DNA from: Gordius albopunctatus
Taxonomy: Eukaryota
DNA: 64,000 bases
Direction: 5' to 3'
NCBI GenBank assembly: GCA_964276515.1
Contig: OZ193909.1
Location: 13,888,001 to 13,952,000, forward strand
Part shown: positions 1,114 to 63,995 of the stretch, one piece after another
How the letters are laid out: every line of letters begins with the position of its first letter
How positions within the stretch are numbered: position 1 is the first letter of the stretch
Notes under the pieces: generated by a model
Database searches by the model: none
Told to the model about the DNA's origin: nothing
What the model saw: only the letters and a program-made list of their open reading frames with translations
Position numbers and translations under genes: made by a program

Positions 1114-1776
1114 TTTGAAGTCACATAGATTGACTTGTGTGAATTGGCTTCATTACTTTCTTTTAATTTGGCTGTTTTTTAATTATATTTAATACATTTA
1201 CTCTGCTTTGAACTATTATAATATTTTTTTCTTACATATTGGTATTTTTGGTAATCAAAATACAAATAATTGTATAATTCATCTTTACTATACATATCAA
1301 TTAATTATTTATCAAATTTTTATAAGATTGGTGAGTGAATATTAGTCAGTTATAAGCAATATATTTCTAAAAGCGTACAGAGATAGAACAGTTTTAATCC
1401 ACATGAGTAAATCCTAAGTTTAATTCATACTCACATATAATAGATTGGTTCAAAAATAACTTTTTCAATTTTTTATAAAGGACATATTCATTAAGCCTCA
1501 CACCAATATTGGCAAACATTGTTAATGGTCTTATTGTTTTTGCTACTATGGTAATGTATTTTCTAATTTACTTAAAAAGAATAAAAAATCTCATAGAAAA
1601 AAAATTTTAATCATTTTTTAGTAAATTAAATTACATGATTTGGCAAAAGCTTAATAAAATTCAGATGCCTTAGTTCCTCAAGTAGTTCCAAATTTTTTAT
1701 TAATGCTTTTAGTTAACAAAATTCACATAAATGGAGAGAGGGAGAGAGATATGTGTTATTCATAGACTAATAAAAA

Positions 1777-1812
1777 GGTGCCCTATCAACTCGCCGAAAA
1801 CTATCTTGCCCA
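1777..1812. repeat. DNA-transposon-like terminal repeat; perfect inverted partner at 5377-5399
   Basis: aggtgccctatcaactcgccgaa (1777-1799) is the reverse complement of ttcggcgagttgatagggcacct (5377-5399); related sequence at ~4750-4800 and ~8210-8230. Confidence 0.6.
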
Positions 1813-1833
1813 ATTCACCCTGAGACATTAAGT

Positions 1834-19080: not shown

Positions 19081-19708
19081 TTTTATGAAATTTAATTAAA
19101 CAATATTAAACCTAGATTTACAATTAATCATATATTTAGCAATATTTTAAGGTGCGTAGGTTATTACTATTTTGGCTAACATTGTATAACTATTATTTTT
19201 TTCCAAATAGAGATTTTAATATTATACAATTTGCACTAATATAACGCGTTGGGCATATCAGATAAAACCAAGTCATAAACGAAAAAAATGGGTCCAAGCA
19301 TTTTACAACGGTTTTAAAACTAGAATTTTCTTGCAGAATTTTTTCATCTATTGAATCGAGTTATTAAAATTATTCTACCTAGGCTGTGTAAAGAAACTTT
19401 AGATTTCTGTTTAAGTTTGACCCTCACTAAACAAATACTATGTTATATTTTGTTATTGCATTTATTAACTTAACTCCATCTTTCATATATGCCTTGTATT
19501 ATCTTAACAAAATTTTGAAGTAATGTTGCATCCATTTTTTTATTAAAACATAGCATTTAAAGATATGCTTTCATATTTATGTTTTTAGAATAATTGAGTA
19601 TTCTACTAAATATTTGAAATATGCACTCAAAATTTTAAAAATTTACTAATATTAATGCATTAAGCATTATTTTATTTTGGCTAAAGCAACTTTCATATTA
19701 TGACACTA

Positions 19709-26180: not shown

Positions 26181-28317
26181 ATATCATAATATTAATGAAC
26201 GGGACATAAAATAGATATAAGATAAATTTGAATCTTGATAAGGTAAGTCTAATAATGTTATCAAAAAATCAATTTATTAACGAGCTGGCGGAGAAGATTT
26301 TGAGCGGGTATTCAAACCAGTGTTACACAAATAGTTACGGATAAGATAATTTGTTATATACATTTGGTTTTAAATAGACCCCATGATTTTTCCTAGTGAA
26401 ATACGAAATACTAATTGTTAATTTAGATGGAGATATGCCGATGTCCTATTTTAGGTTAATTTTTCCCTTTTTGTATTGTAGTATTGTTGCGAATAATCGA
26501 CAACCATAAGATAAAAAAATTATTGAATTGAATAGAAGCACCCCTTATATAATTCGATTCTGAAGTCCACACAATACGTTTTTTTGGTTTAATCTAAACA
26601 TATCGCTATCGTGATTTGGTATTACAGTTAGACATTCTGATTTATTAATAAGAAAATATGAGTCAAAAGGTTTGCCTAAAGATAAAAGAAAGGGGTAGTG
26701 TCATTATAATCAATAGCTGACATCTAGGATATAATGCAACTAAGATTTAGGGCAAAATGGCATAATATCTACATTTAAAATAAGTTTTACAACATATAAT
26801 GTGGGCAGCCGCCTCTGAGACCTTGAGTTATATGTTAAATAAAAACAATAAAATGCAAATCTAGTTTAATAATTCAATTTATTACCTATGAATATAAAGG
26901 TTAGAAATGTTTTGTAATCATTAATCAATCAAAAATTAATATGTTTATGAAATTATCAGACAGGCCTTTTCGAAATGTTTATTTTACAAAATGATAATAA
27001 TTAAATGTGAAATTAGATTCACCAATACAGTCAAATGCCCATTATGCACAAGAAATCATCCATCACGAAAAGGGTATATGAATTCAACTTACAATTATCA
27101 ATTTGTCTTTACTGTAAGACTCCCCTTTAAATCAAATATTCTCTTAAAAATAATATCTCGGTTGGTGTAATTTTGAACTGCCTTATAAAAACAGTAGGAG
27201 AGTTTTTAAGTTAAAACGTTATATTTTTCCTTGTTCATCACTTTATATTAAAAAGTTCCACATCTGTCCCTTTCATTTTTTTGAAGGGTTAAACTGTTAT
27301 GCCAACACGTTTGTTGCCTCCTCCATCTTTATGTTTTTGAAATTAGTTTGCCTAGGTTTGGTACAAAATATTGATTATAGTCGAATATGCAAACTGTATC
27401 TATGTTTATGTTATATCACTTGCCCGCCCTTACAAAAATTTTATTCGCATAGATAGCTTAATTTGGGCGTGATCAATTCATTCTGCAAATTATACCAAAC
27501 TTTATATAATATATGTTTGCCAAGGAATGTTCTGCTATCGCTTTTTTATAAATTAAATATAATCTTTTCAGACTTTGATTAAATAGTAAAAATCCATTAA
27601 TATTATCGAATTATGACAAGCGCCATCTTTAGTTGTGCCCAATATAACGTTAAAATATAAGGAACGCTAATGGTATAATTTTAAAATATGTTTATTTTTT
27701 TAGTATTAGTTAAAACATCAAAGAAACTTTAAAAGCAATTGTGTTTTTGAATCTAGGATAACAAATCGTGGTTTACGACATTAATATTTGTATAAGTATA
27801 GATTTAATTTTATTTGAGCTAAATTTTAATATGTCTTAATAATAAACAATACGAAACTAAAAATTTTCTCACTTTTACCGAGCAAGTTCTATGTGTTTAA
27901 AATTTTTAAATTAATTGGTAATAGTCAAACGTCTCAAAGAGTGTGGATAAATTTCTTTTTTAACTGATCTGTATGTCAAATAATGGACACAAGATGTAGC
28001 CTATTTAATAAAATTGAAGCTATGGTCTGTATTAAACATTACACGTCGGATATTTTTACATATACCACAGCTTTTGTATAAGTATAATTTATATTTTAAA
28101 TTAAACAATGTAAGAGTATACTATATTTTTTGATAACTTTATTTTCCTACAAATGTCATAACACATAAATATAGACCTGAAGCACGGTGTATAAAAATAT
28201 AAAGAAATAATATAAAAGAAATATTACACGATAAACGGACTCTATGTGTAATAAAAACGAACCCTAAACAAAAACTTTGGCTTGGCATTATACTTTATAG
28301 CGTGTATTGCACGCTCA

Positions 28318-30627: not shown

Positions 30628-31935
30628 CAGTGTTTCGATCTCGTCTCGGTCTAGAAAACAAAATCTCGATCTCGTCTAGTCTAGTTTCGACGAGAATTCT
30701 CGTCTAGATTTTCAAAAAAAATATATACGGAATAAAATTTCTCCTGTTCTATTAAAAATATTAAATAAGTGTTAAGAAATTTAAATGGCAAACTTTATAT
30801 TTTTGAAAAACTTTAATACACTTTGTTAACGATTAGGCTGGACACGACATCTCATTGACAATATAAAGATATGAATAAATTCATAAAGATAACATTTTCT
30901 ATGGAAAGTGCAGACTGAAAAACTATAAATAAATTTAAGGTATAGAAAATTAAATTTTATTTTTCTAGCAAATTATAACATTTACATCAAATTAACTGTG
31001 TTTGTCAACTAAAAATAGACTTAGAAAATTATAAGTTCTCTTATAGGTGACTTAGTTGTATAATTGAGCAAATTGAGATCCTTCTTTAATTTTATGATAA
31101 AAATCCTTATAATCAAATTTGTATTCTAATTAATTACCTTCTAATCTAACTAACTTTGACATTAAATATTAATTTATCTAGTACAGTATAGGTTCGTGTA
31201 CTTATTTAATATTGCATAATTATAGAAATTGTAGTAATTTAAATGCACCTGCCCACCCAGCTTATAATGTAAAAAGTAATGTATATGACAAAACTATGTA
31301 TTAATATAATGTCTTATTAAGGTTCAAAATTTGGGAGGTATACTATTAATTGAATCATAAATCTTCTAGAAAACTCATAATTTAAGATTTAATTTATTAC
31401 GGTGTCATTAAATACTCTATTGTACTTTTGAAATCGTTAGGCTGGTGCTAAAAAATCTCCAGCGACCTTGGCTTAACTTGTTTAATTATTCAAACTAATT
31501 GACCCCCAATTTATAATTACCGCATCATGCAGGGTGAGTAGCAAAATTTAAATATGCTTTAGTAGTATTTACTATTCCATCAGTACTCATTCTAAGCCTA
31601 ACATTTTTTAATATTCAATAATGCTATGGATACAAATATGTGATAAATATATTATAAAATTATTCACATACGCTAAGGATCAACCATGCTTGGGTAAATG
31701 ATTGCTAAATTTTAAATATTTTGCGAAAATATATAATATTTATTACCTACACTTAGAAATTTTTTAAATATCAAATATATTCCATACATATTTATCTACA
31801 CTAAATACCTTAAATGTAAATCATGAAAATTAAAATACACAATAATTTAATAAAATCTAACGATCGATAAAAAGTCGAGATCTCACCGAAAAAATCTCGT
31901 CTCGTCGCGACATCAAGAGACTTTCCGCATCACTA
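30628..31935 (-). mobile_element. hAT MITE family A, longer copy in reverse orientation
   Basis: CAGTGTTTCG...CGCATCACTA ends; reverse complement aligns with 5252-6272; no TSD seen. Confidence 0.85.
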
Positions 31936-32779: not shown

Positions 32780-33100
32780 TGACCATATGACGAATGACTT
32801 TCTTATGACAAAAATGAATATTCAACCTATGGCGGACATGATTAACGAAAATCGATTAAGGTGGTATATGAAGATATACTAAGGGGTACACGAATGACCT
32901 AAATCGAAAAGTACTGGACATGGAGGTGCCGGAGAAGAGAGGAAGAGGACGACCCCGTGCCACATGGAACAGGCAAGGCGATAAAGTTATGAAAACTAAA
33001 GAGTAGTTAAGACATGGCACTCATCCGGTCAAGATGCAAGAAACTTATCAAAACAAACCCCAGGACCGTGGGACCAAATAACTGATAAAGAAGAAGAAGA
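32780..33100 (+). mobile_element. 5'-truncated RTE fragment (same family as copies 2 and 3)
   Basis: DHMTNDFLMTKM...ENRLRWY and 3' end gggaccaaataactgataaa(GAA)n match copy 2. Confidence 0.9.
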
Positions 33101-35714: not shown

Positions 35715-38037
35715 GTCAGGTCGGAAACCGGCTATAAAAATCAACTCCAAAACTATGATAGTTTCAAACAGGATTTTACAAGAAAAGGCTAGGGCGTCCT
35801 CCACAAACAACGCGCACTGCATACCCCGCCCGTGCAATGTAAAAAATACACTAGGGTTACTGCCAAACTCAGAACGAAGGTGGTAAAGGAAACTAGTTGT
35901 GGAAAGAATGCGAATTACGTGCTGGAATGTGGAAACGTTGACAGGGAAGAGCATCGAGGTCGCACAGATGCTAAAAAAAAGAAAGGTACACATCGCCTGC
36001 CTACAAGAGATGAGGTGAAACGGAACGAAAGCTCGGGAATTAGGAGAAGGATACAAACTTTTCTACAGTGGGTCATCAAATCGTAGAAACGGGGTTGGTA
36101 TCGTTCTAAGTGAATCTTTCAAGGACAAGGTGGTGGAAGTAAAGCGTTGTTCCGACAGGCTAATGTGGGTGAAGATTGCAAATCAAGGGGGCCTCCTAAC
36201 CGTTATGTGCGCGTATGCCCCCCAAATTGGATGTTTAGAATCAGAGAAAGACATATTCTTCGATTCATTGGAAAAGGAAATAGAAGGAATAGGACAGGAA
36301 GAAAGGCTAATACGTTGGGAAAAATCGCCTCGGGTATGAACGCAATCATGGAGGCTATGGGCATGGTCTGAAGAACAAATAAGGGGAAAAACTTCTCTAA
36401 GTATCCCAAGCATATGACAAGGCGATCGTTAACACCTATTTTCAAAAGCGCGAAGATCATATTGTGACCTATAGAAGTGGGAAGCATTTTAGTCAAATCG
36501 ACTATTTGCTTATAAGGCAAAAGGACTTATGGAGTATCAAGGATTGCAAAGTGATACCGGGAGAAGAAATTGCCAGACAACATCGTCCCCTTGTTATGGA
36601 TCTTGACAGAAGAGTATTTCCCGAAAGAAGAAAGTTCTATGAACCTCGAATTCGATACGAGAGGCTAAAGGATACGTCGACGAACAAAGAATACCATCAA
36701 AAAGCCTGCTCACTCTTGGGTGCAAGGAAGTTGTAAAGGGACGTAGATGACGATTGGGAGACGCTATCTAAGGACATTAAGGAAACAGCGATTCGTGTTC
36801 TAGGACAGACCAAAGGAGGCAGAGCTATGAATAGGGAACTATGGTGGTGGGATCAATCGGTTAAAGATTTCATCGAAAGAAAGAAAAATCTATATAGACG
36901 GTGGCATAAATCAAAAATGTCGGAGGATTATCAAGAGTACAGGTACGCAAAGAGGGCCGCAAAAAAGGCCGTTGCAAAAGCGAAGAATGCCGCGTACACC
37001 GAGATGGCAAACAAACTGGATCATAAAGAGGGCGATAGGCTTATGTACAAATTGTCCAAGATAAGGGAGAAGAAAAGTCGCGATGTCGGAGTTTTTAAAA
37101 AAACTCTTGCGTTAGGACGACAGTTGGAGACTCTAACCCTTTTCGGGTTAATATTGGATTACATCAAGGCTCTGCTTTAAGTCCCTTTTTATTTAATATC
37201 ATTATAGACACGATAACGAGGGACGTTCAAAAGCCTTCGCCATGGTGTATGCTATATGCCGATGATATAGTACTATGCGAGGAAACAAGAGAGAAGGTAT
37301 TCGAAGAAGCCGAAAAATGGTCAAAGCGCTTAGCTGGATATGGTTTAAAGGTCAACGATAGAAAAACGGTATACATGGAAAAGAACGGTACAAGCACCCC
37401 ATCGCTGGATGACCATCTAAATTACCCAAAAGTAGACAGGTTCACATACCTCGGCTCGATGCTACATCAAGAGGGAGGTTGCACGACAGAAGTCAATGTC
37501 CGGATCCAAAAAGGATGGCCTAAATGGCGAAGTATATCCGGTGTTATGTGTGACAATAAAATGCCAATATGGTTGAAGAGCAAAGCTTACAAATCCATCG
37601 TATGACCGGTGTTACTCTATGGAAGTGAAACATGGGCATTAAACACCACGGAATTAAAGCTATTACAAGCCACAGAGATGAGAATGATACGGTGGAGCTT
37701 GGGGTATACTAAGCTCGACCATATGACGAATGACTTTTTCATGACAAAAATGGGTATTCAATCTATGGCAGACATGATTAACGAAAATCGGCTAAGGTGG
37801 TATGGTCATATCCTAAGGAGGGATACGGATGACGTAAATCAAAAAGTACTGGACATGGAGGTACCGGGGAAGAGAGGAAGAGGACGACCCCGTGTCACGT
37901 GGAAAGGGCAAGTCGATAATGTTATGGGAACTAAAGAGATTAGTCAAGACATGGCACTCAGCCGGTCAAGATGGAAGAAACTTATCAAAACAATCCCCAC
38001 CAATGTGGGACCAAATAACTGATAAAGAAGAAGAAGA
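35681..38037 (+). mobile_element. RTE-clade LINE copy 3 with an internal deletion of roughly 0.7 kb
   Basis: Highly similar to copy 2; the junction at ~37095 joins copy-2 position ~15905 to ~16589; (GAA)n tail. Confidence 0.95.
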
Positions 38038-40958: not shown

Positions 40959-42036
40959 ATTCCTACCGCCTAAATTCAATAATAGGGGAATGCTTAGTTT
41001 TGTTGTTGATACAGTAACTTAAGTAGGCTACATTTTAAATATAGACTAAACTTTTAAAGTAACTTGTGAGAGTAGGATATTAGAGGAGACAAAATAAATA
41101 ATAGTATCAAATAACTCTGGGTGAATGCAGTGTTTTACAGGAATAAGCCTGACATTTTAAGAAATGTTCTTCGTTGCGGTTATTTTATTTAGCAAATATA
41201 ATTTAAATCTTTTTTAATGAATATAATAGAGCATGTCCGTTAGATTAATCCTTATTTCTCCATAATCTCCTGCGCTGATAGTGATAAAATCTGCATATAA
41301 ATGTGTCATTTGGTTTGTGTGTTCTTAAATTTTTTTATTTCATTTAACTTTATTTATAAGTCATGTAATTAAAATATTTCAACATCAAGGAGCTTTATCA
41401 CGTGTACATTGCTGTTAAAGCCATTTATTTTAAAATTTTATAATCTACAACTGCGGGCATCAACAATGATAATTAACTCGTAATTTTTTCTAAATTGAAT
41501 ATAAGTATTTTTATAACATTCTCATTGTTTTCACCGATAGCATTTGGTAGTACAGAAGGCTTAAATAGATTTTAGTCGCTAAAATCATTATAGATTCTTA
41601 AAATCGTCAAATGATTCGTATAAATTAATTAAAATTTTTAGTTAATGATTGTATCTTCCATTTTGAATCAAAATAAAATCATAACAAATCATAACGCACA
41701 ACATTTTTAAAAGACATGTTGTATAATATTCGAGACATCAATTAATGTAAATATTAATAATTATATTCCATATTAGGCACAACTATTATTAAGAGCAAGA
41801 TGTTTAAGTGATACCTTTACCATGTCCTCCCCATTAATTTACTCATTGAAATATAAAAGGTGTCAGTAGCAAAGGAAGTAAGTGTGTCTCGTACAATTAC
41901 GCATACATTGATTGCCATGAAACTTATCCTTTATTCATATAATAGCAATAGTTCACGAATTGACTTATTTGATCCAAGAAATTAACACATTTTACGAGAA
42001 ATTTTACCATAATTTAGGGAGGAAAATTTCTTAAAA

Positions 42037-42831
42037 ATGAATAAATCACATAAAATTTCAAACATATCATCTATCAATATCCAATCATCTCTTTCAAATA
42101 TTGGCGTCAAACAAGTGAAAACTTCAAATTATTTGCAAATATCAGGTAAAAATGACAATCCGAAATTAGATGTAGCATATTCATCCTCTAAGACATGTTC
42201 TAAAGAAGAGTACTCATCCGATGATGAAATTTGCCAAGAAAACTGTTGTGTTCCAGATGAGAAATTGAAGTATTTTCCATACAATTTCAATAATTATCCA
42301 CCAACTTTGAAAGAATCCCTAGAATTTCGTAAAAATACGAAAAATAGATTTTCAAATTGTTTTTCAGCCCCACGTCAAATTTATTCGTCAGAAAATCATT
42401 TCATGCCATCACCTTTATTAATGTCCAGCTCTATGCACGAACAATACGCCTTCTTGCAAACTTATTTTAAAGCCCAACATGCTTTAGCCGATTCCTATCG
42501 TAGCTATAACCAATCAAACACAACCAATCATAATAGTAATACATTGTTGAGAGAACATACTAAATCACAGTCTAAGCTTCACTGCGAGACGATAAAATCT
42601 CCAGAATCGAGTTCCCAAAGAAATACCAGGTTTTTCAGAGCCCCTAAATGTGCCCGTTGCAGGAATCATGGTTTAATTTCGGCCTTGAAGGGTCATAAAC
42701 GGTTTTGTGGTTGGAAGGATTGCGAATGTGCTAAATGTTGTTTAATTACTGAAAGGCAAAGAGTTATGGCAGCCCAGGTTGCTTTAAGACGTCAACAAGC
42801 TCAAGAAGATTTAGTCGCTGCAGATGTTTAA
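42037..42831 (+). CDS. DM-domain (doublesex/mab-3 related) transcription factor, closest to the DMRT4/5 (Dmrt99B) type; DM domain at the C-terminus
   Basis: [65 protein letters not shown] at 41852; AATAAA at ~42947. Confidence 0.93.
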
Positions 42832-45834: not shown

Positions 45835-50466
<4,632 letters not shown>

Positions 50467-50550
50467 AGTAATAAAAAGCCAGCATGGTAGTGTGAGGGTA
50501 CAAATCGATATGAAAGATAAGATGCGAGATTTATCCATAGATAATAAAAG

Positions 50551-52849
50551 TAGTGATGGGAAAACGCTTAGCAGTAGCGCGCTTAGCACCTCCCCGCTGA
50601 TGGGAATAGCCTATTAAATACGCTATGTCTACTAGCACATAGTCACTTTAAGTGCTATAAGCTATAGGAGATGGGAGGTTTGAGGTGCTAGAGCTATAGG
50701 AGATGGGAGGTTTGAGGTGCTATGAGCTATAGGAGATGGGAGGTATGAGGTGCTATGTGCTATAGGAGATGGGAGTTTGAGGTGCTATGTGCTATAGGAG
50801 ATGGGAGGTTTGAGGTGCTATGTGCTATAGGAGATGGGAGTTTGAGGTGCTATGTGCTATAGGAGATGGAAGTTTGAGGGGCTATGTGCTATAGGAGATG
50901 GAAGTTTGAGGTGCTATGTGCTATAGGAGATGGGAGTTTGAGGTGCTATGTGCTATAGGAGATGGGAGTTTGAGGTGCTATGTGCTATAGCCGATTGCAC
51001 TTAAATGCGCTACTCCTATAGCACCGGCGCTAACACTGGGAATAATTTTTTTAATTGTTTATTTTGTTTTTATTAAATATTAAAATACATCTGAATATAA
51101 TTTTTTTGCCCTATCTTACCATCTAACTACGACTTATTTTAATATAAATATTTAATTAAATGTATGACTTTAATTTTATTTTGCATTGCTTCTACATTTA
51201 TTTTATCAATAAGTCGCCCCGCCCCCCTCTGAATGACGGAAAAAAATTTTTTCCAATGTACCTTACATATTAATAATTTTTTTTTATTTAGCCCCTCCCT
51301 AATTCAACTTTTATTTTAACCGTTTGGCCCCCCCCCCTTAATTCAAAACCTAGTTATGCCCTACGCCCATGTTTTTGAGAATAAAAAAATTAAACTCCCC
51401 CTTTCCTTAAGTTAATATGTTTCAATTAAAAGGAAAACAATACTATTGAGTGAACTTTTATGCGTTTGCGTACTCAGACTCAGACAGTCTTAGTCTGAGC
51501 TGAGTCATAATTACCAAGAAAAGGTTACGGTTATCTCCAACTTCCTTAAACCAAATGCTATGCATGAATAGCTGGAAAGTCAATAATTAACAAAATATTT
51601 GCCTGTTTTATTATATTTATCAATATAACTAATATATATATAATGCGAAATGGTCGAAAATAAAGTTATCGTAGTTTGTGATTTTTAACGAGTGTGTTTT
51701 CATATAGACGTTGATAAAGATATCTCACTTGGGAAATCTTTTATTATATTTCCCAAATGTAACATAAAATAAGTACTTTAACCGGCTGATATAAAACACA
51801 TTGGAAATATTACACTTAAAGATTAAATTTGTTATTTAAGTCGGATTTATATTGGTTATTAATTAGTGACCAACCATTACCTTTTTTAAATATTCTTAAC
51901 ATAAGTTTTATGTTGAGGTGACCGGGGCTAGTCGTAGCCAGGTAAATAATTATTTTTCATAAAATTAATATTTTTATGTTGAGTTGAAGAAAAGGATAAA
52001 GATATTAAAGATGAGAGCGAAAAATTAATTTTCTTTTTATCACTGACTGAATAAAAATAACATGGCATGAGTGAGTATGCGTACTCAGACTCTGAGATCT
52101 GAGTACGCATTAAAGTTCACTCTTCTTACTCTTAGGTTTTCCTTTTGATTGAAACATAATCGCCCTGATGGGATATGGATTAACTTAAGGGAAGGGGGAG
52201 TTTAATTTTTTTATTCTCAAAAACATGGGGTAGGGTAGGGCATAACTAGGTTTTGAATTAACCCCCCCCCCTCCCCGATTGAAAAAAAGTATTTTTTTAA
52301 ATATTAAACATTTTGTTTAAAATTTATAATTTAAAATACTTAGCATAAATTACTTAGCAATTTGTAATTATTTACTTAGCAGTTAAATAACACCCTTTTT
52401 TAATTTTGTTTTTTCGAACAATATATTTTTAATGGAAAATTGTTTATTAGATTACACACAAGTTCATATTAACTCTATTGTTTTCATTGAAATTATTCCC
52501 AGTGTTAGCGCCGGTGCTATAGGAGTAACGCATTTAAGTGCAATCGGCTATAGCACATAGCACCTCAAACTCCCATCTCCTATAGCACATAGCACCTCAA
52601 ACTCCCATCTCCTATAGCACATAGCACCTCAAACCTCCCATCTCCTATAGCACATAGCACCTCATACCTCCCATCTCCTATAGCACATAGCACCTCAAAC
52701 TCCCATCTCCTATAGCTTATAGCACCTCAAACCTCCCATCTCCTATAGCTTATAGCACCTCAAACCTCCCATCTCCTATAGCTTATAGCACTTAAAGTGA
52801 CTATGTGCTATAGCTTTAGCTCCTTAAAAACGCTATTTCCCCATCACTA
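50551..52849. mobile_element. Foldback composite hAT insertion: two inverted MITE copies (50551-51038, 52500-52849) plus a captured, partly palindromic middle; 8-bp TSD
   Basis: Both outer ends are TAGTGATGGG in inverted orientation; aataaaag at 50543-50550 and 52850-52857; inner inverted repeat ~51338-51480 / 52098-52261. Confidence 0.85.
50655..50990 (+). repeat. 32-33 bp minisatellite, ~10 units (mirror array of ~7 units at ~52548-52790)
   Basis: Unit gctataggagatgggag(g)tttgaggtgctatgt, no spacers. Confidence 0.95.
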
Positions 52850-53112
52850 AATAAAAGGCTCCCCCCCCCCCCAAAAATCCCAAAACGCCAGAATCCTCAA
52901 AATATTACCACTCGCCAAATTTAACATATGTTAAATTGTGCTTAATATTATGGAAAACGTGGGAATCTCTTTGACGCAAAATCTTCAAAACAAAGAAAAT
53001 ATATGTGAGCATTAGTATTCAAGTGTAAATATATTGTTGTAGGGTTTAAAAAACCAAAGAGAAAACATAAAATTTTAACCCTCTTTATATATCAAAGTTA
53101 AAGAGGGAAAAT

Positions 53113-54030
53113 ATGAACAAATGTATTATAAGTGCAGCAAGTACAGTAAATATCAATGCCCAGGAAGGGTTGTGCTTAAATCTAATATGTCAAATAACAT
53201 CAGAACATTCCCTTAATTGTATACAAAAGCATAGTCAGCAAAGTAAGAAATTTATAATTTAAATTAAGTATTTAGTTGTAGAAAATATCTCCATACCCAT
53301 AGAGGATCAAGAAAGTAAGAGATTTTAGTATTTTTTTTTATTTTTTTTTAGATTTACGTCAAGAAGCAATTTTATTGAACTCATTAGATAATATTGAACA
53401 AGCCCTTACATCAGATGTTAATGGAAGTAAGAGATTTGAGTATATTTTTTAAAATCTTTATTTATTTTAGATTCAAGTCAAGATGCCATATTAAACTCAC
53501 TAGATGATATTGTAGCAAGCAATTTGACATAATTCAATGTCACATAGTTAATGTTTAACTATCTTATTTATAAATAGATTCCAACAATGATGCTTTACGT
53601 GTTAATACCCAAAGTAAATTCATTTTATATTTCGTTTATGTAACCACACTATAATTTAGATATAACATTCTTGCCATCCCAAAAAGGGAAAAACATTTTA
53701 GTCCTTAATAACTATCTTTATGTAGTTGACAAATCTACAAAAACTTGCACTTATTATCGATGCAGGCATTCAAAATGTCCTTGTAGACTAATATTTTCTG
53801 AGAATGTAGCAAAAATAAAAAAAATCATAACCATGAACCTGAAACTGATGAGTATCATTGCCTTCTGACAAAAAGTAATTTAAAAAGGATTTACAAAATA
53901 TATCCATGGAATCAATTAGAAAGGTAAATATATAATAATTGATCTATTTAGGTATACAATGATGTATTTACCAAAAAAGGGAAGAAGTTGAGGATATTTG
54001 GCAATACCCACATGCTCTGCCGTCTTTAAA
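53113..54030 (+). pseudogene. Intron-containing FLYWCH zinc-finger (MULE-transposase-like) gene relic
   Basis: Short phase-1 exons with GTAAGA donors lead to SQKGKNILVLNNYLY...YYRCRHSKCPCRL; the HNH is out of frame in an A-run at ~53820; in-frame stop at ~53530. Confidence 0.65.
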
Positions 54031-54045
54031 ATCCGTGAACGGAAC

Positions 54046-54539
54046 TAGAGGTCTGCAGGGGCCGGGCCAGCCCGCAGGCCCAAGCCCGGCCCGCGGGCTG
54101 GGCCGGACCTGAAAATGAGCACTAAAAAAAGTGCGGGCCGGGCTTGGGCTTTGATAAGTGAAAAAATTTAAATATATTGAACTCTATACTATCATTATAG
54201 TATTGACACAAAAAAATGCATTTATTATCTTGATGATAAAAAATTTATTTTTTCTAACAAAAATTTGCTATTTAAACAGTATTATTTTGAGGAAAAATTT
54301 AATCTTATATTTTTCGCTAATTAAGTAACGTTTTTATAAGCTATAACAATTTTTTTCACACATGCAAAATTGTTCCTATACAAATAAATTTTTTTGAAAA
54401 CACTGAAGCTTTTATCTCCTGCGGGCCTGATGCGGCGCATTTTTTGTTGTTTTTTTGCGGGGCGGGTATGGGTAAAAAATATATTTGTGCAGTTATGGGC
54501 CGGGCCTGACCCTGAAATTTCGGCCCATGCAGGCCTCTA
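54046..54539. mobile_element. hAT MITE with perfect 8-bp TSD
   Basis: TAGAGGTCTGCA...TGCAGGCCTCTA; TSD aacggaac at 54038-54045 and 54540-54547. Confidence 0.9.
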
Positions 54540-54574: not shown

Positions 54575-56214
54575 GCCTATTTTCCCGGGAAACTTCCCTG
54601 GGGAAAAATGATTTTTCCCCAGGGAAAATTCCCCTAAAAAATATATTTTTTAAATCAAATATGTATGATCTAATTTAAGTTATATATTATTTTAATTTAC
54701 TTTAATTTCATATTTACCTCGTGGTAACCAATATTTTAAATATTTCCTAATTTATAATTTGTGAAAATTTGCTTAAATACTATTAACATCTAGTTGTTAA
54801 CTTAAAAGATTTTGCAATCTACACTAAAGTTAATTATCTCAATAATCAGTTAAGACAATATACCCTAATAGTTACATTAACAATTAGTTCTCTAGTATAA
54901 AATTTTTTCCATATAAGGTAAATTTACCATGCTTGTAAATTTAATTCAATGTTTAGCAAAATCATTTAAATTTTATATTGCCATTTTACTCTAAATCTGA
55001 AAATATTATATACCAACTTAATAGTAAGTATAAGTAATATTTAAAAAATATATCAACTTGTTATTTAACATTAGAGAATTTGCAATCTACACTGAAATAA
55101 TTATTACAATAATCCTAGATAAGCTTTTAAGTTATATTAACAGATAAATTTACATATGCTTGTAAATTTAAAATATTTAGTAAAATCATTTAAATTTTAT
55201 ATTGCCATTTTACTCTAAATCTGAAAATATTATATACCAACTTAATAGTAAGTATAAGTAATATTTAAAAAATATATCAACTTGTTATTTAACATTAGAG
55301 AATTTGCAATCTACACTGAAATAATTATTACAATAATCCTAGATAAGCTTTTAAGTTATATTAACAGGTAAATTTACATATGCTTGAATATTTAAAATAT
55401 TTAGCGAAATCTATTATATTTTTATTGCCATTAACTGTGAATAAATTAAGTAATCTTAAATAGATATTTATTTTATGCTAGTATTTAGTTTTTTTATATA
55501 GAAGTATTTTTTATATCTAACTAAATTAAAATTTCTACATTTTATTCTGGTAAAAATAATCTGTAATCCTTTGAAAACAATAAATGTAAAAATTTAATAT
55601 TATTAAACTTATTTTTTTGACTAATAGATGCCACGAAAAACATCTGACATTTGGAAACATTTTTCTAAACATTTATCTTCAAATAAGAAAGGTTGTATTG
55701 CTGTTTGCAATTATTGCAATTTAAAATATACATTTCCAAACTCAACCAAAATGATAAATCATATAGCTAAGTGACCAGATTTTATAAAGGAAAAGAATTG
55801 TCAAGAAGTTTTTTTAATGCCTCCCTCTCCACAATCATCAATTTGTGAGGTAATGCTTGAAAAATGCCCTATACAACAAACATCTGCTTCATGTGACCCA
55901 GAACCATCAACATCCAATATTATTAGTTACTTTTATAGCATGACCCAAACTCAGCAAGAGAAATTAGATGAAAAATTAGCATTGGCTATTTAATGATTTT
56001 CTTGTATTTGCTTCTTTATATTGTTTAACTAATAAATTTTATTAATCTTAATCATACTCATGGACATTTTTTTATACTAATTTACCTGTCTTGCTCGTTA
56101 TTTCCCCTTAATTTCTTGTTTTCTCCCGTTAATTCCCGTTTTTTCCCCATTATTTCCCGTATTTTCCCGTGAATTTTCCCTTAAGCAAATTTCCCGGGAA
56201 AATATCCATCCCTA
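54575..56214 (+). mobile_element. Deleted hAT element with BED-finger remnant and ~224-bp internal tandem duplication
   Basis: TTTCCC-rich subterminal repeats, right end CATCCCTA; MPRKTSDIWKHF...CNYC...MINHI at ~55628-55770; duplicated block starting at ~54964 and ~55188. Confidence 0.65.
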
Positions 56215-56229: not shown

Positions 56230-56510
56230 AGTTCTATATATTAACATTTATCATGAAGTTTCTTTACTTATTGGATTGAGTCCAATATACCAAGCATAAA
56301 CTTGATGTTGAACCATCTTATAATTTACTATAAACGTTAAAAGTTTAATATTGAATAAAAAACAGAAACAGTTCTATATATTAACATTTATCATGAAGTT
56401 TCTTTACTTTTTGGATTGAGTCCAATACACCAAGCATAAACTTCATGTTGAACCATCTTATAATTTATTATAAACCTTAAAAGTTTAATATTTAATAAAA
56501 AACAGAAACA
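56230..56510. repeat. 140-bp tandem duplication
   Basis: agttctatatattaacatttatcatgaag starts at 56230 and 56370. Confidence 0.85.
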
Positions 56511-56897: not shown

Positions 56898-59800
56898 TAG
56901 TGTTGGTAAGAGAATCTTTATTAATTTTTGGAGATGACAAAACAAAACGCACGATTAAACATTTGTAGCGAAGATGTAGTATTAAAACATAGGAATAGAT
57001 ATGTTACGAACATTAATGGGATAGAGTAACGTAATCCTGTAGTTATGTCATGGGATGTAGTGAGGAGAAGAATTCAATGTAATTAGAGAATTATGTGTCA
57101 CCTCTACAAATTTTCAATTGGCTACCTAATGTCGCCAATGTCTAAACATTGCAATACTCCCCTTCCAGATATATTTAAAGTTTTAAATATGTCGATAAAA
57201 ATTGACTGAAAATTATGTGATGTATTCACGAAGGTTTTTCGGCCAATGGACTTTTCTGCCTTTTCTAGTTTATTTGGCTGGTTCTTCTGCCTCTTGTGTT
57301 GTTGCTTCAGCTTGAGTTTCGTCGGCGGTCTGAAAGAATGGTTCCTCTTTACTTAGATGGCAGGGTTTTAATCTGTCTATTGATACTGAATCTCTTTTAC
57401 CATGTTTTTCTATGACGAAGTATTTGGGTTCGCGTTTTAAAACTTTAAACGGTCCGTCATACGGTGAGGTGAGTTGACTACCAACTGTGTCGTTTCTGAC
57501 GAAAACATGAGGTGTTTCTAACAAATCTTAACTAACCTGGTCTTTTGGTTTCCTGTGGTGTTGCGGTATGGGGTACGGTATTGCAATCATTGCCTTTCTT
57601 AGTTTGTCTACAAACATATGCAGTTCCGCTACCGATTGTTGGTTGGCCTCAGGTTGCTCTAGAAATTAATCTCCAGGGAGTCTTATGTTGGTTCCATATA
57701 CGAGTTCAGATGGTGTTAGTCTAATGTCTTCCTTGATTGTGGCACGGATACCAAGTAACGCAAGTGGAAGAACTTTACTCCATTTGATTTTTTCGGTGGC
57801 TTTTAACGATGCCTTTGTGATAGGCGGTGGTTTTTATATGTTTGCACCCTAATGTGTTGGAAAGTTGTCTGAGAAGTCCTAACTGAAACTGAGATCCTCT
57901 GTCGGTAGTAATTGTACTTAGGACACCGTAATTGGCTATCCAACTTTCAATTAGCTTGGAAACGATCTCTTCGTTAGATGTTTTTTTGAGTGGAACGGCG
58001 ATGGGCCATCTCGAGAAACGATCGATTGCTGTCAAAATGTGAGTTAAACCGTTTGAAGGTGGTAGTGGTCCAACTAAATCGACATATATGTGTGAGAATC
58101 GTGCGTCTGGTTCTGCAAAAGTTCCGGGCGTCGTTATAGTGTGTTTATGATAGAGATGCACCGATACCACTATTTTGTGCCGATACCGATACCAGCCGAT
58201 ACTTAAGATTTTTTTGCCGATACCGATACCATGCCGATACTTATAATAAAAAATTTTTATACTAAAAAATATATGCAAATTAAATATTATAAATTAAGTC
58301 ACATCCAAATTTTGGTAGATCAGAATTTTGACGATAAAACAATTGTAATATAATATTAATTTATAATAATAAATTTTGTTATTAATTAATTCATAAGTAT
58401 TGTAATTAATAGATCAAAAAAGAAATTTAAATTTTATTATGGTACACTTTATATTTTATTAATACATAAATTTATTTTATAAAAAAGGAAATATACGTGT
58501 AATATGCTTAAATTAAAAACTAATATTGAAAATTTAGTTCTCTTATGTTCAACTTAACAATTGTTTATTGTTCTATTTTCTCCAAAAGAAGCCTTCTTCT
58601 CCTATTAGAATCTATCTCACTCATCATACTGAATAATGATTCTGATGGTACTGTTGTTGGTGGTGGGCCTAGATATCTTCTGGCTAATTTCAGAAAAATA
58701 ACGTCGACTTAGAATGAAATATTTAGGACACATTTTTTTATTAATCTATTAAATCCAATATCTTCTACAATTGAAAAGGGTTGTGACTTGTGAGTCCAAT
58801 GCAATCATTTCAGCAATTAATTGAGTAATACTCTCTGCTTTATTATGTGTACTATCCCACATTTTATTAAGTTCAATCACTTCCTTTAATGTAGATTGAA
58901 TACCAGAAGCTGGTTTTTGTTTATTCAAATTAATCTTTTTTGTATTAATATCACTTTAATTTTTAAGAACACTGCGAAATTCGATTGGATGTCTAGTTTT
59001 TAAATGTTTCCTTAAATTTGAAGTATTAACGGAATCTTTGTCTTTGCCCCCACGACTTATTTTAGCTTTGCATAATTCACAGATTACAATATTTTCATCT
59101 GCTGACACAACAAAATAACTCCATAGTGTATCTAAAGAACCCATTTAAGGCTTAATATATAATAATTTTTAAAATAATATTTACTTAAAAGCGGAGTTAT
59201 TCGGAACAGATGGTGAATGAGTTTATTATACTCAACATAGAAATATTTATAGCCAATCAAATGAAACAATTTTAAAAAAATTTAAAAAGTCCTCTATTTT
59301 TTAATGGTAGGAGATACTATAAATATTATTTTTTGAGTTTCATATTGAAAAAGGTATCGGCTTGGTAATTGCCGATACTAGCAATGTATCGGCAAATACT
59401 TTTGGCAAAGTATCGGCGCCGATACCATGCCGATACTTGGTATCGGTGCATCTCTAGTTTATGAACTTTGTTTAGTTGGCATTTTAAACAACACTTAGCC
59501 CAATTTCTAACGTCTTGGTTCATCGAAGGCCAGACTACTCGATTTGTAATTATCTTCAAAGTGGCGCGTATGCCTGGGTGTGATATAGCGTGGAAATGGT
59601 CGAAAACTGTTTTTCTGAGTGTTTCTGGAATGACCGGTCGAGGTTTGGTAGTTGAAAGATCGCAAAGGATTTTTCTCTCGAATGCTGGCATTGGCAATAA
59701 CTGTAACTTTAAAGATGATGATTCCTTTAAGCTTTTCAGGGATTTGTAATTTATCTGTTGTCTGCTAACTCTTCTAGATCGGGCATTTCTGGCAACTTGA

Positions 59801-62290
59801 TAGCATCCACTCCTAACCGAGAAAGTGTGTCCGCGACTCATTTCGCTTTGCCTTAGATGTATTGTATATCTGTGGTAAATTGAGATATAAAATCCAGTTG
59901 CCTGGTTTCTCGTGGCGAGTATTTGTCAGGTTTCGCATTAAATGCGTAGGTTAAGGGCTTATGGTCGGTAAAAACGGTGAAGTGTCGACCTTCTAACATG
60001 TGTCAGAAGTGTTTGATAGATAGGTAGATGGCGAGGAGTTGTCGACTGAACGTGCTGTACCGTGACTGAGCTGGTTGAAGTTTAACCGAAAAAAATGCCA
60101 CAGGCGAAGTTTTTTCTGATACAGTTTGTTCCAACACTGCACCCACCCATGAATTGGAGGCGTCTGTCGTCAACGTAATTTTGGTTTTTGGGCTGGTGTC
60201 CTAATAATTTAGAGTCGTGAATTCACTGAGCGCGTCTTTAGCCTTGTCGAACGCTTTGATCTGACTGTCGTTTAAAACGACGGATTTTCGAGGATTTTTA
60301 AGTATGTCAGTTATTGGCTGTAGGGTGTGTGCCATTCCTGGTAAGAATCTCCGGTAAAAATTTATCATACCGAGGAATCTACGGAGTTTTTTACTTGAAT
60401 CCGGAATTGAAAAATTTTGAATGGCATCAATCTTCTCTGGTAGGGGGTTTATACCCGTAGAAGATATTCTGTGTCCCAGAAATTCTAATTCTCCGACTCC
60501 GAATTGGCACTTGGCAGGATTGATCCTCAAATCATACTCTTGTATACGTTTAGCAACGGTTTTTAGGAGCCTTTCATGGTCCGCGTCGGACGAACTAGCT
60601 AATAGTATATCATCTATATATGCGTAGGTTCCTTCTATCCCTCTTAAAACTACGTCGATAAACCTCTGGAAAGTTTGTGCGGCGTTTTTTAACCCAAAAG
60701 GCATTCTACGAAATTCGTAGAGTCCGAACCGTGTCGTTACGGCTGTCTTGCAAATGTCATCTTGTGCAGCCGGAATATGATGGTAAGCTCTTACCAAATC
60801 CAATTTAATAAAGACTGTTTTTCCGCATAGATTTGCTGTGAAATCGCGGATGTGGGTTATTTGGTATCGGTCGGGAACCGTTACTTTGTTCAGGCTTCTA
60901 TAGTCCCCGCAGGGTCTCTAATCGCCAGATTTCTTAATTGCCAAGTGTAAGGGGGAAGCCCAATTGCTTTGTGATTCCCTGATAATGCCGAGTTCTAGCA
61001 TATACTCAAATTCTTTTTTAGCTGCTTGTAGCTTGTCGGCCGCCAATCGTCTGGGGCGTGAATATTGTGCTGGGCTTTTGGTTATTATATGATGAAGAAC
61101 GTCGTGAGCTGGTATTTGTTGGGAAAAATATAGAGGTGATAGGAGCGACGGAAAATCTTTTAACATGGCCTCTAATTTAGAATTCTGATAAGTGAATGCT
61201 ACACGAATTCCAAACGTTTGGTGAGGCGAGGTGAATCCTCTTGATGATAGGTGTGTCACTCCGTCGCTTAATATTTTTTTTTGATGTCCACAATTAAATT
61301 GTGTTTGTGTAACAGATCAGCTCCTATAATCGGCGTGTGAACGTCTGCTATCAGGAAAATCCATTGTATCTCACGTCTTAGGCCTAGGTTTAAAGCTAAC
61401 CTTTTGTCCAAAAGTGCAGATGTTACTTTTGTTGGCAGCTTGCAAAACCGGACCATTTAGAATTTTGGGGAAATTGGTTGGCGGTGGAATAATGCTCACT
61501 TCGGCACCAGTGTCGATAAGAAATTTTTGTTTCGACGTTTGGTACATAATGTAGAAAAGACGAATGTTTGAATCTGAGCCAGTAGTAGCCGTCGTCTGAA
61601 CCACCCGGCCTGTTAGTTTTTTTGATTGTCATCACTGAAGGCGCAGGACTTTACGCCTTTGCGAGCCTTGTCCTGGAATTTGGAATGATAATAACAGTAT
61701 GGGTGCTTTTGTGTCCTGATCCGTGAATTACTTCTTGTCCGTACTCTTCCATGGTAGGAACGTTGAGATAAATTGTTTATCTTTACCTCTAAATTACTAA
61801 TTTTTTGTGTTAAATCCTGTATTGCCTTGTCAATATCTGTGGATTTAACTATAGAAGTAATATTACTATTTTGTGACATTGTTTCATATATCCGGTCAGC
61901 GACTTCAGCTAAACTTGATAGAAAATTTTCCTCCCCCAAACAGGTTAGAATTCCAGTAATCTCTTTAGGCATTTTGTTTACCTATAAGTTCCTAAGAATT
62001 GTATCGCTCATTTGATGCTCTCCTAGTAGGGACTTTAAATGTCGTAATAATTGAGATGGGGATTTTTCACCCATGTAAATTTATTTAAAAAGGTTTTGGA
62101 TTCTCTTAGTGTCACTTTGTCCAATTTTTTTTAATCAATGCTTGTTTTAAGGCATCATATGGATTCTCTTCAGGGATGTTAAGGATGAGATCTGCGACCT
62201 CTTCTGCCACTTCTACGGGGAGAGATTCTAATAAATATGCCTATTTTACCTTCTGAGAAGATATCTTCCTGGTTGAGAATATAGCATCGA
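56898..62290 (-). mobile_element. Gypsy/Ty3 LTR retrotransposon (second family): gag-PR-RT-RH-IN plus 3' LTR (~56898-57156); degenerate, 5' end lost
   Basis: FLIDTGAEVS, YIDD, HPGIRAT...WAKCCLKCQ, VDLVGPLP...TDRGSQF, GPF motif; polypurine tract GGAAGGGGAG at 57157-57166 on the minus strand. Confidence 0.92.
58151..59456 (-). mobile_element. Internally deleted hAT element (BED finger + hATC remnant) inserted in Gypsy integrase
   Basis: TIR TAGAGATGCACCGATAC; TSD gtttatga at 58143-58150 and 59457-59464; ORF 58956-59144 LWSYF...CELC...NTSNLRKHLKTRH. Confidence 0.93.
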
Positions 62291-63035
62291 CCTGTGCTAT
62301 CCAAATCTGCCTATCCACAAACATCAATTCAAAATGATTGAGATGCTTGTTTGGTTTCGCGCTCCGTTGCTCATTTACTTTCGAGCAGCGACACCAAACA
62401 ACATTACAACCTTCGCTCATTGGTGTTTGATAAATCTGGCCACAAATGGCTTGAGGCTTACACCCTAAATATTCAAATATGATGTTGGAGGATCCCGAGC
62501 TATCTCTACAGTATAGCTCTACGCCTTAGCATTAAATACACCAAACCATATGCCTGTAGGAATTGCGACTTGCCAGTTGACGAAGAAGCCCTTCATCCAT
62601 TACATTGTAGTTTAAACAAATTCAGACACATACGACACTCTAAAATCAACTCCATCATCCAGTCAGCCCTTAAAAAGGCTAAAATCCCCTCCATTCTTGA
62701 TCCGTCAGACCCTTCTCTTGAGGGTCGAATGCGCCCTGACGGCTCCTCACTTGTTCCTTGGGAAAATGGTCTATTCTTAAAATGTGACTTTACATACATT
62801 TATTTGTTTGCCCCTTCAAATCTCAATTATGATCCAATGGCCCTCGCCGAGGCCGCAAATTAACAAAATACAAGGCCCTTTTAAGCTCAAGTATTTTTAT
62901 CCCCATAGTTTCATCCTCTTCCGGCTCTTATGGGAAAATGCCATTAGCCTTTTTTAAAGAGCAGACGATCTCCTCCTTCTAAATATTCTCCCGCATTTCT
63001 ACTAAAACAATCAATTGCAATTTTAATCGCAAAAA
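62290..63035 (+). mobile_element. CRE-like non-LTR 3' fragment A
   Basis: HPLHC...RHSKIN...RPDGSSLVPWENG; homologous to 18137-19080. Confidence 0.8.
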
Positions 63036-63769
63036 CGGATCGGGTCACGAGTGGCTAGAAGCTTATCCTAGTTCACTTTTTGGACTGATGTTAGAGGACC
63101 CAGAGCTTGCATACTCTATCGCCCTCAGACTAGGAATTCTCTATTCAAAGGAATATTCCTGCCGCAAATGCTCCCAGAACGTTTTACAATAAAATTAAAT
63201 ACACAAGGCACGAAAAGGTTAATAGCCTTATCCAAGCCGCTCTTAAAATTTTGAGCCTTCTGACCCTTCGTTAGAGGGAAGGATGCGACCAGACGGCTCT
63301 ACCCTCATCTCTTGGCAAAATGGTCTTGCCTTTAATGGGATTTCGCCTGCATAGACATTTTCGCCCCCTCTAACCAAAACTACAACGCTCTCACCCTCGC
63401 CGAACACCGCAAAACGGTAAAATACCAGGCCCTCCTACCCTCGAATATCTTTACTCCAATCGTTGCCTCATGTTCTGGGACTTTTAGTCCTGTCGCCATC
63501 AAGCTTTTTAAAGATATCAGCCGTCGCTGCCCGCCCTCTAAATATTCCACAAATTTTTTACTTAAACAAAAAATTGGTATTTTAATAGCAAAGTACAATT
63601 TTAAATCCCTAGCCGACAGCTGGCCACTTTTATTAGATGATTCATGCGACGCTTTTTAATTATAATTTTTTTTTATTTTGTTTTATTCCCGCTCTTATAT
63701 TTTTCGAATTTTAACACTTCGTTTTTTATAACTTTCTTACATTCAAATAAACAATACATACAAAAAAAA
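63036..63769 (+). mobile_element. CRE-like non-LTR 3' fragment B with polyA end
   Basis: GSGHEWLEAYPS, RPDGSTLISWQNG, ADSWP; AATAAA and A-run at ~63746-63769. Confidence 0.8.
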
Positions 63770-63841: not shown

Positions 63842-63995
63842 CATGTGCGTAGCCAGGGCCCCCCCCCCTAAATGGCGAAAATAAAATTCAATGCAAAAAC
63901 CCTTAAGAATTAAAAAAAATTATGTTTTGCCCCTCCCTAATTGAACTTTTAAATGTTTTGCCCCCCCCCCCTAATCTAAAACCTGGGTAGGCCTA
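63842..63995. repeat. Short G/C-tract MITE of the CATGGGCGTAG/CAGTGGCGTA type; related copies at ~5026, 8090, 13220, 14040, 29945, 34840, 39948, 44691, 47830, 51330, 52225
   Basis: Recurrent ends (GGCGTAGC / GCTACGCCCATG) with poly-G/poly-C tracts. Confidence 0.6.

What the first reader, a model, noticed from the sequence alone, without database searches (positions are those of the whole stretch)
50543..52857. Foldback composite transposon with two identical hAT ends and one 8-bp TSD, inserted in the DDX47 upstream region
Seen: neither MITE copy has its own TSD, but the whole 2.3-kb unit is flanked by aataaaag. Both outer ends are the same TAGTGATGGG terminus. The inner ends share ~10 bp of flank (ggaataattt), a second inverted repeat lies inside, and both arrays share a rare unit variant (ggtatgagg). 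Established: alternative transposition of maize Ac/Ds (hAT) makes composite insertions and inverted duplications with 8-bp TSDs, and FB elements have minisatellite-rich arms. Inference: an FB-like element formed from a MITE, sitting 85 bp upstream of the ATG of an essential gene; it may supply or displace the promoter and form a hairpin.
Basis: partly seen in the sequence, partly recalled or inferred. Interest (0 to 1): 0.7.

Follow-up and report, generated by a model that had tools for sequence, protein, structure and literature searches.

The report
Foldback-armed hAT-type transposon beside DDX47
This is one copy of a many-copy, gene-less jumping element with long mirror-image arms that likely jumped in one piece, likely recently, to 85 bases before a ribosome-assembly helicase gene; it was not built at this spot, and any effect on that gene is untested.

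Summary
The structure is real: a 2,299-bp unit (50551-52849) with an exact 8-bp target duplication, 10-bp TAGTGATGGG tips, two long inverted arms (416 and 321 bp) carrying 10 and 7 units of a 32-33-bp minisatellite, inner CAGTGTTAGC tips and a second inner inverted repeat. The ends are not identical: 82 and 39 bp of unlike cap follow the tips. Public contigs show that the left tip is a very high-copy terminus with many flanks, that the whole interior is repeated (about 20x and 99.5% alike in one run), that shorter 1.4-kb and 0.9-kb versions exist, and that no listed contigs leave the inner tips into mixed flanks. Flank contigs of two samples stop fitting exactly at the insertion point, so the site is likely empty in them. 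Best reading: a young, likely polymorphic insertion of a non-autonomous hAT-type family with foldback arms, shared with a related organism. A composite built here by Ac/Ds-style alternative transposition is not supported. An old origin from an inverted pair of MITEs stays open, because a sister hAT family in the window pairs the same two tip types. A promoter role is untested and unlikely to be an evolved function.

The parts
50543..50550 (+). Target-site duplication, left copy (AATAAAAG)
   Evidence: Exact 8-bp match to 52850-52857; 7 and 9 bp do not match
50551..50560 (+). Left outer tip, 10-bp terminal inverted repeat TAGTGATGGG (fits the hAT motif YARNG)
   Evidence: depth step of 270-1,257x and mixed flanks exactly before 50551 in 4 of 4 runs laid
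50561..50632 (+). Left-type cap, unlike the right cap; holds a decayed copy of the right-type tip at about 50598-50618
   Evidence: Alignments; high depth over the whole cap
50633..51048 (+). Left foldback arm (416 bp), inverted copy of 52490-52810
50652..50990 (+). Minisatellite, 32-33-bp unit, 10.5 copies (10 whole units), rich in GCTA
51029..51038 (-). Inner hAT-like tip CAGTGTTAGC (likely relic), followed inward by the shared 10-bp GGAATAATTT
   Evidence: no mixed-flank loose ends here among the 24 of 475 rows shown
51049..52489 (.). Non-coding interior, a mosaic of repeated pieces; repeated in the genome along its whole length
   Evidence: Depth in all 30 bins far above flank in organism A; single X2 contigs at about 20x flank depth with 4 other letters in about 750; no Pfam hit in the 10 interior ORFs of 35 aa or more; no Rfam hit
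51222..51361 (+). Relic of another small element nested in the interior (71% like 63861-63993); its end at 51361 is a free terminus in organism B
   Evidence: 12 and 14 contigs with mixed flanks behind 51361 in X3 and X5
51338..51494 (+). Second, inner inverted repeat, left copy
   Evidence: 75% over 187 columns to 52083-52261, with a 51-bp core at 98%
52083..52261 (-). Second, inner inverted repeat, right copy
52490..52810 (-). Right foldback arm (321 bp), with the inner tip CAGTGTTAGC at 52500-52509
52548..52791 (-). Minisatellite, same unit, 7.5 copies (7 whole units)
52811..52839 (-). Right-type cap; other copies appear to carry about 33 bp more between this cap and the arm
   Evidence: loose ends before 50621-50624 in 4 of 4 runs share 17 letters with this cap-arm border
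52840..52849 (-). Right outer tip, 10-bp terminal inverted repeat
52850..52857 (+). Target-site duplication, right copy
50410..50466 (-). Likely first coding exon of the DDX47/RRP3-like helicase gene (ATG at 50466); host context, not part of the element
   Evidence: exon 49865-50050 hits Pfam DEAD 1.9e-15 and human DDX47 3ber_A 1.9e-27, next best 8.5e-12
52950..53927 (+). FLYWCH-domain gene or relic, head to head with DDX47, with frame changes inside both domains; host context
   Evidence: Pfam FLYWCH 1.7e-6 and 6.6e-10; three-frame reading

Best explanation
The unit is one copy of a multi-copy, gene-less DNA transposon family with foldback arms, which a hAT-type transposase made elsewhere in the genome likely cut and pasted here in one piece, likely recently, duplicating 8 bp of target. 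The working ends are the two outer 10-bp tips with their unlike left and right caps; the GCTA-rich minisatellite in the arms would serve as extra transposase binding sites (inferred from Hermes and Galileo, untested). The inner CAGTGTTAGC tips are likely relics that travel as cargo. The interior is a mosaic of other repeats and varies among family members by deletion. The insertion widened a 176-bp head-to-head gap between a DDX47-like gene and a FLYWCH relic to 2,483 bp; it is likely polymorphic and would be neutral or mildly harmful rather than a co-opted promoter.
For: Shown: exact 8-bp duplication and YARNG-type tips (motif from PMC3014272, passage). Depth rises 1,257x, 1,240x, 270x and 356x at 50551 in runs X1, X2, X3, X5, with 16, 28, 7 and 10 contigs leaving into mixed flanks before 50551. 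At the inner tips there is no such step: summed depth at the two inner ends over the adjoining interior is 0.99, 1.33, 1.29 and 2.06, and none of the 24 loose-end rows shown of 475 lies there with mixed flanks. Three X2 contigs tile 51506-52191 at 20-21x flank depth with 4 other letters in about 750. Joints 51490 to 52361 (X2, 14x flank; 51480 to 52361 in X1, 9x) and 51063 to 52472 (X1, 1x) give 1.43-kb and 0.92-kb versions if the ends are the same. Two other elements in the window have YAG tips and exact 8-bp duplications (5252-6272, 54046-54539). Known: hAT ends need to be unlike (Hermes LE/LE nearly inactive, RE/RE inactive; 10.1101/2022.09.16.508221 section 13); foldback arms arise in several superfamilies (PMC4079207 passages).
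Against: No full-length second copy with its own duplication was seen: no genome is held and no contig spans the unit, so whole-unit movement of the family is inferred from depth and joints, not read. The 88 unfitted letters were not printed, so the empty site is inferred. No listed contig bridges 50550/50551 (32 of 1,021 pieces shown), so the filled allele rests on the window alone. In X5 the inner ends are 2x deeper than the adjoining interior, which leaves room for arms with other neighbours. Summed contig depth is not a copy number. No cognate transposase was found, so hAT membership rests on tips and duplication length.
Confidence: 0.8

Rival explanations
1. Origin story, compatible with the best explanation: the family began as an inverted pair of one ~400-bp hAT MITE (GTGATG tip, array, GTGTT tip) that moved as a macrotransposon on its two outer, same-type ends; a ~47-bp cap added to one end restored left-right asymmetry and the pair then amplified as a family.
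For: A sister family pairs GTGATG-type with GTGTT-type tips (5252-6272 with an 8-bp duplication; also 30628-31935 without one). Each arm here runs from a GTGATG tip to a GTGTT tip. A decayed copy of the right tip lies at about 50598-50618, just inside the left cap. In organism B, 2 and 3 contigs turn unlike behind 50598, so the cap looks like a separate module. Ac macrotransposons can excise and gain copies (PMC9910405 passages).
Against: No free monomer was seen. The same arms could come from one end being copied over the other inside a single element, as in Galileo copies whose long repeats recruited inner sequence (PMC3573991 passages). Maize macrotransposons use one 5' and one 3' end. Which tip type is 'left' or 'right' in the autonomous partner is unknown.
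Confidence: 0.3
2. One reading: a one-off composite insertion or inverted duplication made by alternative transposition of two nearby MITE ends, carrying host DNA from a donor site.
For: One 8-bp duplication around two inverted MITE-like halves that lack their own; shared 10-bp inner flank. Maize composite insertions are bounded by transposon termini and an 8-bp duplication (PMC4270019 passages).
Against: Composite insertions hold copied flanking host DNA of the donor locus; here the interior is repeated about 20x at 99.5% in X2 and 9-15x in organism B, with deletion variants. The caps differ, which a fresh duplication of one MITE would not give, and the right-type border recurs in all 4 runs. 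No donor or tandem duplication lies in the window.
Confidence: 0.05
3. Two separate MITE insertions into an existing repeat, with the outer 8-bp match by chance, or an assembly artefact.
For: No listed contig bridges the left junction; the target 8-mer is AT-rich and occurs 14 times in the window's two strands.
Against: Chance of the match at fixed ends is about 1-2e-4; neither half has a duplication; flank contigs stop fitting at the last base of the duplication; the copy has its own variants against run contigs (9 letters missing behind 51578).
Confidence: 0.05
4. The element has been co-opted as promoter or regulator of the DDX47-like gene.
For: It sits 85 bp before the ATG in what would otherwise be a 176-bp head-to-head gap; the arms can form about 350 long-range pairs.
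Against: The site looks empty in both samples of organism A and in organism B, so the gene seems to be maintained without it.
Confidence: 0.07

Closest known systems
Non-autonomous hAT elements (Ac/Ds, hobo, Hermes, Tol2 type)
   Same: 8-bp target duplication, YARNG tips (PMC3014272 passage), short terminal repeat, unlike left and right subterminal stretches with a short repeated motif (Hermes preprint passages), deletion derivatives and nested pieces of other repeats (as in hobo_AC, PMC3014272 passage).
   Different: Carries 320-420-bp inverted arms with a minisatellite just inside the caps, and a second pair of hAT-like tips inside. No transposase found.
Foldback-like elements (Drosophila FB, Tetris, Galileo; sea urchin and Chironomus elements named in PMC4079207)
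   Same: Long modular inverted arms (flanking part, tandem array of unequal length in the two arms, inner part), variable non-coding middle, no gene.
   Different: Most foldbacks are placed in Mutator and Galileo in P (PMC4079207, PMC3688188 passages); this one has hAT-type tips. The long repeat does not reach the tips: 82 and 39 bp of unlike cap intervene.
Tol2 with its internal inverted repeats from the Angel MITE
   Same: A hAT element that carries an inverted pair of MITE-derived ~300-bp repeats as cargo (10.64898/2026.01.12.699174 passages).
   Different: In Tol2 they lie mid-element in an autonomous copy and come from an unrelated MITE; here they are subterminal, hold a minisatellite and have hAT-like tips.
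Maize Ac/Ds composite insertions and macrotransposons
   Same: Several transposon ends in one unit, one outer 8-bp duplication.
   Different: Those are single events with one 5' and one 3' end and copied donor-flank DNA; this is an amplified family with a repeated interior.

Membership tests
Non-autonomous hAT element | 8-bp target-site duplication | tested here: met
   Exact 8 bp, not 7 or 9
Non-autonomous hAT element | Termini fit YARNG | tested here: met
   TAGTG at both outer tips; motif from PMC3014272 passage
Non-autonomous hAT element | Short terminal repeat followed by unlike left and right subterminal regions with short repeated motifs | tested here: met
   10-bp repeat, 82- and 39-bp unlike caps, GCTA/TAGC motifs
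Non-autonomous hAT element | Dispersed copies with different flanks | tested here: met
Non-autonomous hAT element | A hAT transposase element with matching ends in the genome | not testable with these tools
   No genome held; only an unrelated-looking, weak transposase-like piece at 7469-8041
Foldback-like element (structural class) | Long inverted arms with internal tandem repeats of unequal number | tested here: met
   416 and 321 bp; 10 and 7 units
Foldback-like element (structural class) | Non-coding, variable middle | tested here: met
   No Pfam hit in 10 of 10 interior ORFs; deletion joints
Foldback-like element (structural class) | Long inverted repeat continuous to the very termini | tested here: not met
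   Unlike caps lie between the 10-bp tips and the arms; so it is foldback-like in shape, not a textbook long-TIR element
Mutator-type foldback | Duplication of about 9-11 bp and G-starting termini (recalled) | tested here: not met
   8 bp and TAG tips
Ac/Ds-type composite insertion made by alternative transposition | One outer 8-bp duplication | tested here: met
Ac/Ds-type composite insertion made by alternative transposition | Interior is copied host DNA flanking the donor elements; structure is a one-off | tested here: not met
   Interior repeated about 20x in X2 and in the related organism, with shorter versions
Ac/Ds-type composite insertion made by alternative transposition | Built from two elements that also exist and move singly | tested here: inconclusive
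   No mixed-flank loose ends at the inner tips among 24 of 475 rows shown; a sister family has that tip pairing

The most novel reading that the evidence does not exclude
A hAT MITE dimer turned into a new family: two copies of one MITE, tail to tail, moved on their two same-type outer ends, one end gained a short cap that restored the left-right asymmetry hAT transposases need, and the composite then amplified in two related animals as a foldback element. The inner tips and the decayed tip inside the left cap are the fossil record, giving a traceable route from MITE to foldback in the hAT superfamily.
Probability: 0.3. Interest if true: 0.5.

Novelty: new variant of a known kind. Interest (0 to 1): 0.3.

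Why it matters
As it stands this is an undescribed non-autonomous transposon family in a repeat-rich animal genome, notable for combining hAT-type tips with foldback arms; three paper searches listed no such hAT foldback, though they cover open-licence papers only and I read listings, not every paper. If the dimer origin holds, it would show how foldback arms are born and how a same-ended composite gets round the end-asymmetry rule known from Hermes. The likely polymorphic insertion 85 bp before a DDX47-like start codon is a ready natural test of how much a hairpin-forming element disturbs a compact head-to-head promoter.

Tried and rejected
No whole genome is held, so no direct search for full-length copies. 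No RNA holder listed: nothing on start sites, expression or small RNAs. Two scans of metagenome contigs found nothing. One viral scan gave 2 single 17-letter matches that extend to at most 30-36 aligned letters, taken as chance. No earlier findings by sequence or by place. No Rfam match at E 0.1 in 50400-53100. No Pfam match at E 0.01 that passes a cut-off in 48 of 48 short ORFs from five stretches of the window, the interior included. A tight pattern search for tip pairs with an 8-bp duplication found only this unit; it missed the elements at 5252 and 54046 because their tips fall outside the pattern, and these were found by eye and checked. Considered and dropped: the inner inverted repeat as a separate TTAA- or C-run-flanked insertion (no joint 51337 to 52262 among the 15 of 22 joints shown, and its first 24 bp belong to the nested small element); an in-frame ATG at 50538 as the true DDX47 start (possible, untested). 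The paper search gave 0 papers.

Full report
Observation. The unit runs from 50551 to 52849 (2,299 bp). AATAAAAG lies directly on both sides; the match is exactly 8 bp and would arise by chance about 1-2 times in 10,000 at fixed ends. Both outer ends start with the same 10 letters, TAGTGATGGG. After that they differ: 82 bp on the left and 39 bp on the right (tips included) align only patchily, and the two arms become near-identical only from 50633 and 52810 inward. The arms (416 and 321 bp) hold a 32-33-bp minisatellite, 10 whole units left and 7 right, with one GGTATGAGG variant each at different ranks, then about 55 bp ending in a hAT-like tip (CAGTGTTAGC read inward-out) and 10 shared letters. 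A second inverted repeat (51338-51494 / 52083-52261, 75%) lies inside. Neither half has its own duplication.

Surroundings. The window is AT-rich animal-like DNA full of mobile elements ('animal' inferred from a DM-domain-like ORF at 42013-42831, label recalled). To the left, on the minus strand, is a DDX47-like helicase gene: one exon hits Pfam DEAD and human DDX47 far ahead of other helicases (1.9e-27 against 8.5e-12); its likely ATG is at 50466, 85 bp from the tip. That the gene is essential is recalled from yeast RRP3, not tested. To the right, on the plus strand from an ATG at 52950, is a FLYWCH-domain gene with frame changes in both domains. Without the insertion the two ATGs would be 176 bp apart; now they are 2,483 bp apart.

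Tip types in this genome. Two other elements in the window have YAG-type tips and exact 8-bp duplications: 54046-54539, and 5252-6272, which pairs a GTGATG-type tip with a GTGTT-type tip. A further copy of that sister family at 30628-31935 has the same tip pair but no matching duplication. YARNG tips with 8-bp duplications define hAT elements (PMC3014272, passage).

Evidence from public runs. No genome is held. The run search listed 6 runs, 2 of organism A (0.79 and 0.77 of words) and 4 of a related organism B, none on record as RNA; I laid 4 of the 6, all contigs. On 49800-50655 the flank is covered by single contigs (depth 406 and 204 in X1 and X2; 0 and 3 other letters in 751). From 50551 the summed depth rises 1,257x, 1,240x, 270x and 356x, and 16, 28, 7 and 10 contigs leave into mixed flanks before 50551 (agreement 0.40-0.53; 24 of 105 loose-end rows shown). 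The left tip is therefore a true, very common terminus in both organisms. Loose ends before 50621-50624 in all 4 runs match the right-type cap border and add about 33 bp that the window's right arm lacks, so the two caps look like set types of the family, not decay of one end. Organism B contigs turn unlike at 50542-50543. The likeliest reading is an empty site in these samples, but the letters were not printed. Against: none of the 32 of 1,021 pieces shown bridges the junction, so the filled allele rests on the window.

On the interior, 50991-52547, all 30 bins are covered in all 4 runs. In X2 three single contigs tile 51506-52191 at depth 4,021-4,208, about 20 times the flank, with 4 other letters in about 750 plus one 9-letter gap; in organism B single central contigs stand at 9x and 15x flank, about 95% alike. 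There is no step at the inner tips: summed depth at the two inner ends over the adjoining interior is 0.99 and 1.33 in organism A and 1.29 and 2.06 in B, and no mixed-flank loose end lies there among the 24 of 475 rows shown, whereas such ends do show at 51361, the tip of a nested small element (12 and 14 contigs in B). Joints 51490 to 52361 (X2, 14x flank; a like joint in X1, 9x) and 51063 to 52472 (X1, one contig, 1x, shorter side 23 letters) point to 1.43-kb and 0.92-kb family members (15 of 22 joints shown). Summed depth is no copy number; the single-contig ratios are rough estimates.

Mechanism. Shown: duplication, tips, unlike caps, arms, repeated interior, many flanks at the left tip, deletion variants. 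Inferred: a hAT transposase encoded elsewhere binds the caps and the GCTA-rich arrays, cuts at the outer tips and pastes the whole unit. Tandem repeats in Galileo's long arms bind its transposase (PMC3688188, passages), a model for the arrays. The arms can pair (about 350 long-range pairs, longest stack 86), so a hairpin would form if the unit were transcribed; nothing here shows that it is. High identity among copies and the likely empty sites point to a young, polymorphic insertion.

Rivals. A one-off composite insertion of the maize kind holds copied donor-flank DNA between a 5' and a 3' end (PMC4270019, PMC9910405, passages); the repeated interior and set cap types speak against it (0.05). 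An old dimer origin stays open (0.3): the tip pairing of the sister family, a decayed right-type tip at about 50598-50618 inside the left cap, and 2 and 3 contigs of organism B that turn unlike behind 50598 all fit. But no free monomer was seen, and copying one end over the other, as in Galileo (PMC3573991, passages), gives the same picture. Chance or artefact 0.05; co-opted promoter 0.07.

Comparison and novelty. It works like a non-autonomous hAT element and is shaped like a foldback. It meets four hAT features tested; the partner transposase could not be sought. It meets two of three foldback features; the long repeat does not reach the tips. Foldback shape is thought to arise repeatedly, mostly in Mutator, with exceptions (PMC4079207, passages). 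Tol2 is a hAT with a MITE-derived inverted pair inside (10.64898/2026.01.12.699174, passages). Searches (listings and abstract starts only; PMC9659126 passages) named no hAT foldback; subscription papers, repeat databases and supplements were not seen and may hold one. Verdict: real, a new variant of known kinds, modest interest (0.3); 0.5 if the dimer origin is shown.

Noticed in passing
window 5252-6272, 10172-~10760, 30628-31935, 32339: Sister hAT-type family with GTGATG and GTGTT tips and CGAGA-rich subterminal repeats; the 5252-6272 copy has an exact 8-bp duplication, the 30628-31935 copy has none.
   Followed up: partly
window 54046-54539: hAT-type MITE with TAGAGG tips and an exact 8-bp duplication, just downstream of the FLYWCH pieces.
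   Followed up: partly
window 52950-53927 (+): FLYWCH-domain gene with two domains, each broken by frame changes; head to head with DDX47. May be a decayed gene or homopolymer errors.
   Followed up: partly
window 50536-50538 (-) and 50459-50478 / 50531-50550: In-frame upstream ATG 72 bp before the likely DDX47 start and 12 bp from the element tip; a 20-bp imperfect direct repeat spans both ATGs.
   Followed up: no
window 50551-50599: The first 48-49 bp of the left end may be a separate module: contigs of organism B turn unlike behind 50598 and the stretch ends in a YAG-like tip on the other strand.
   Followed up: partly
window 7469-8041 (-): 191-aa frame that looks like a piece of a hAT-derived transposase (Atlas hits 0.93-0.94 to FAM200/GTF2IRD2-like clusters, recognition below threshold; no Pfam hit of that kind). 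Lead only.
   Followed up: partly
window 19692-22226 / 23629-26195: 2.6-kb inverted duplication at 95% identity around broken Ty3/gypsy-like retroelement frames (label from motifs, recalled).
   Followed up: no
window 1774-4707, 14442-17474, 35737-38033, 32781-33100: Several broken RTE-like LINE copies of two subfamilies (label recalled).
   Followed up: no
window 42013-42831 (+): Frame ending in a DM-domain-like zinc motif (doublesex/Dmrt type; label recalled, not scanned).
   Followed up: no
window 63850-63993, 47830-48022, 51222-51361: Small elements with GGCGTAGCCAGG-like tips and G/C runs (Harbinger-like, label recalled); one lies in a DDX47 intron, one is nested in the unit.
   Followed up: partly
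window 54919-55432, 56230-56510: Tandem duplications of 224 bp (2.3 copies) and 140 bp (2 copies).
   Followed up: no
window 57775-61981 and 18214-18993 / 62330-63632: A second broken Ty3/gypsy-like element, and pieces of another retroelement-like frame present three times.
   Followed up: no
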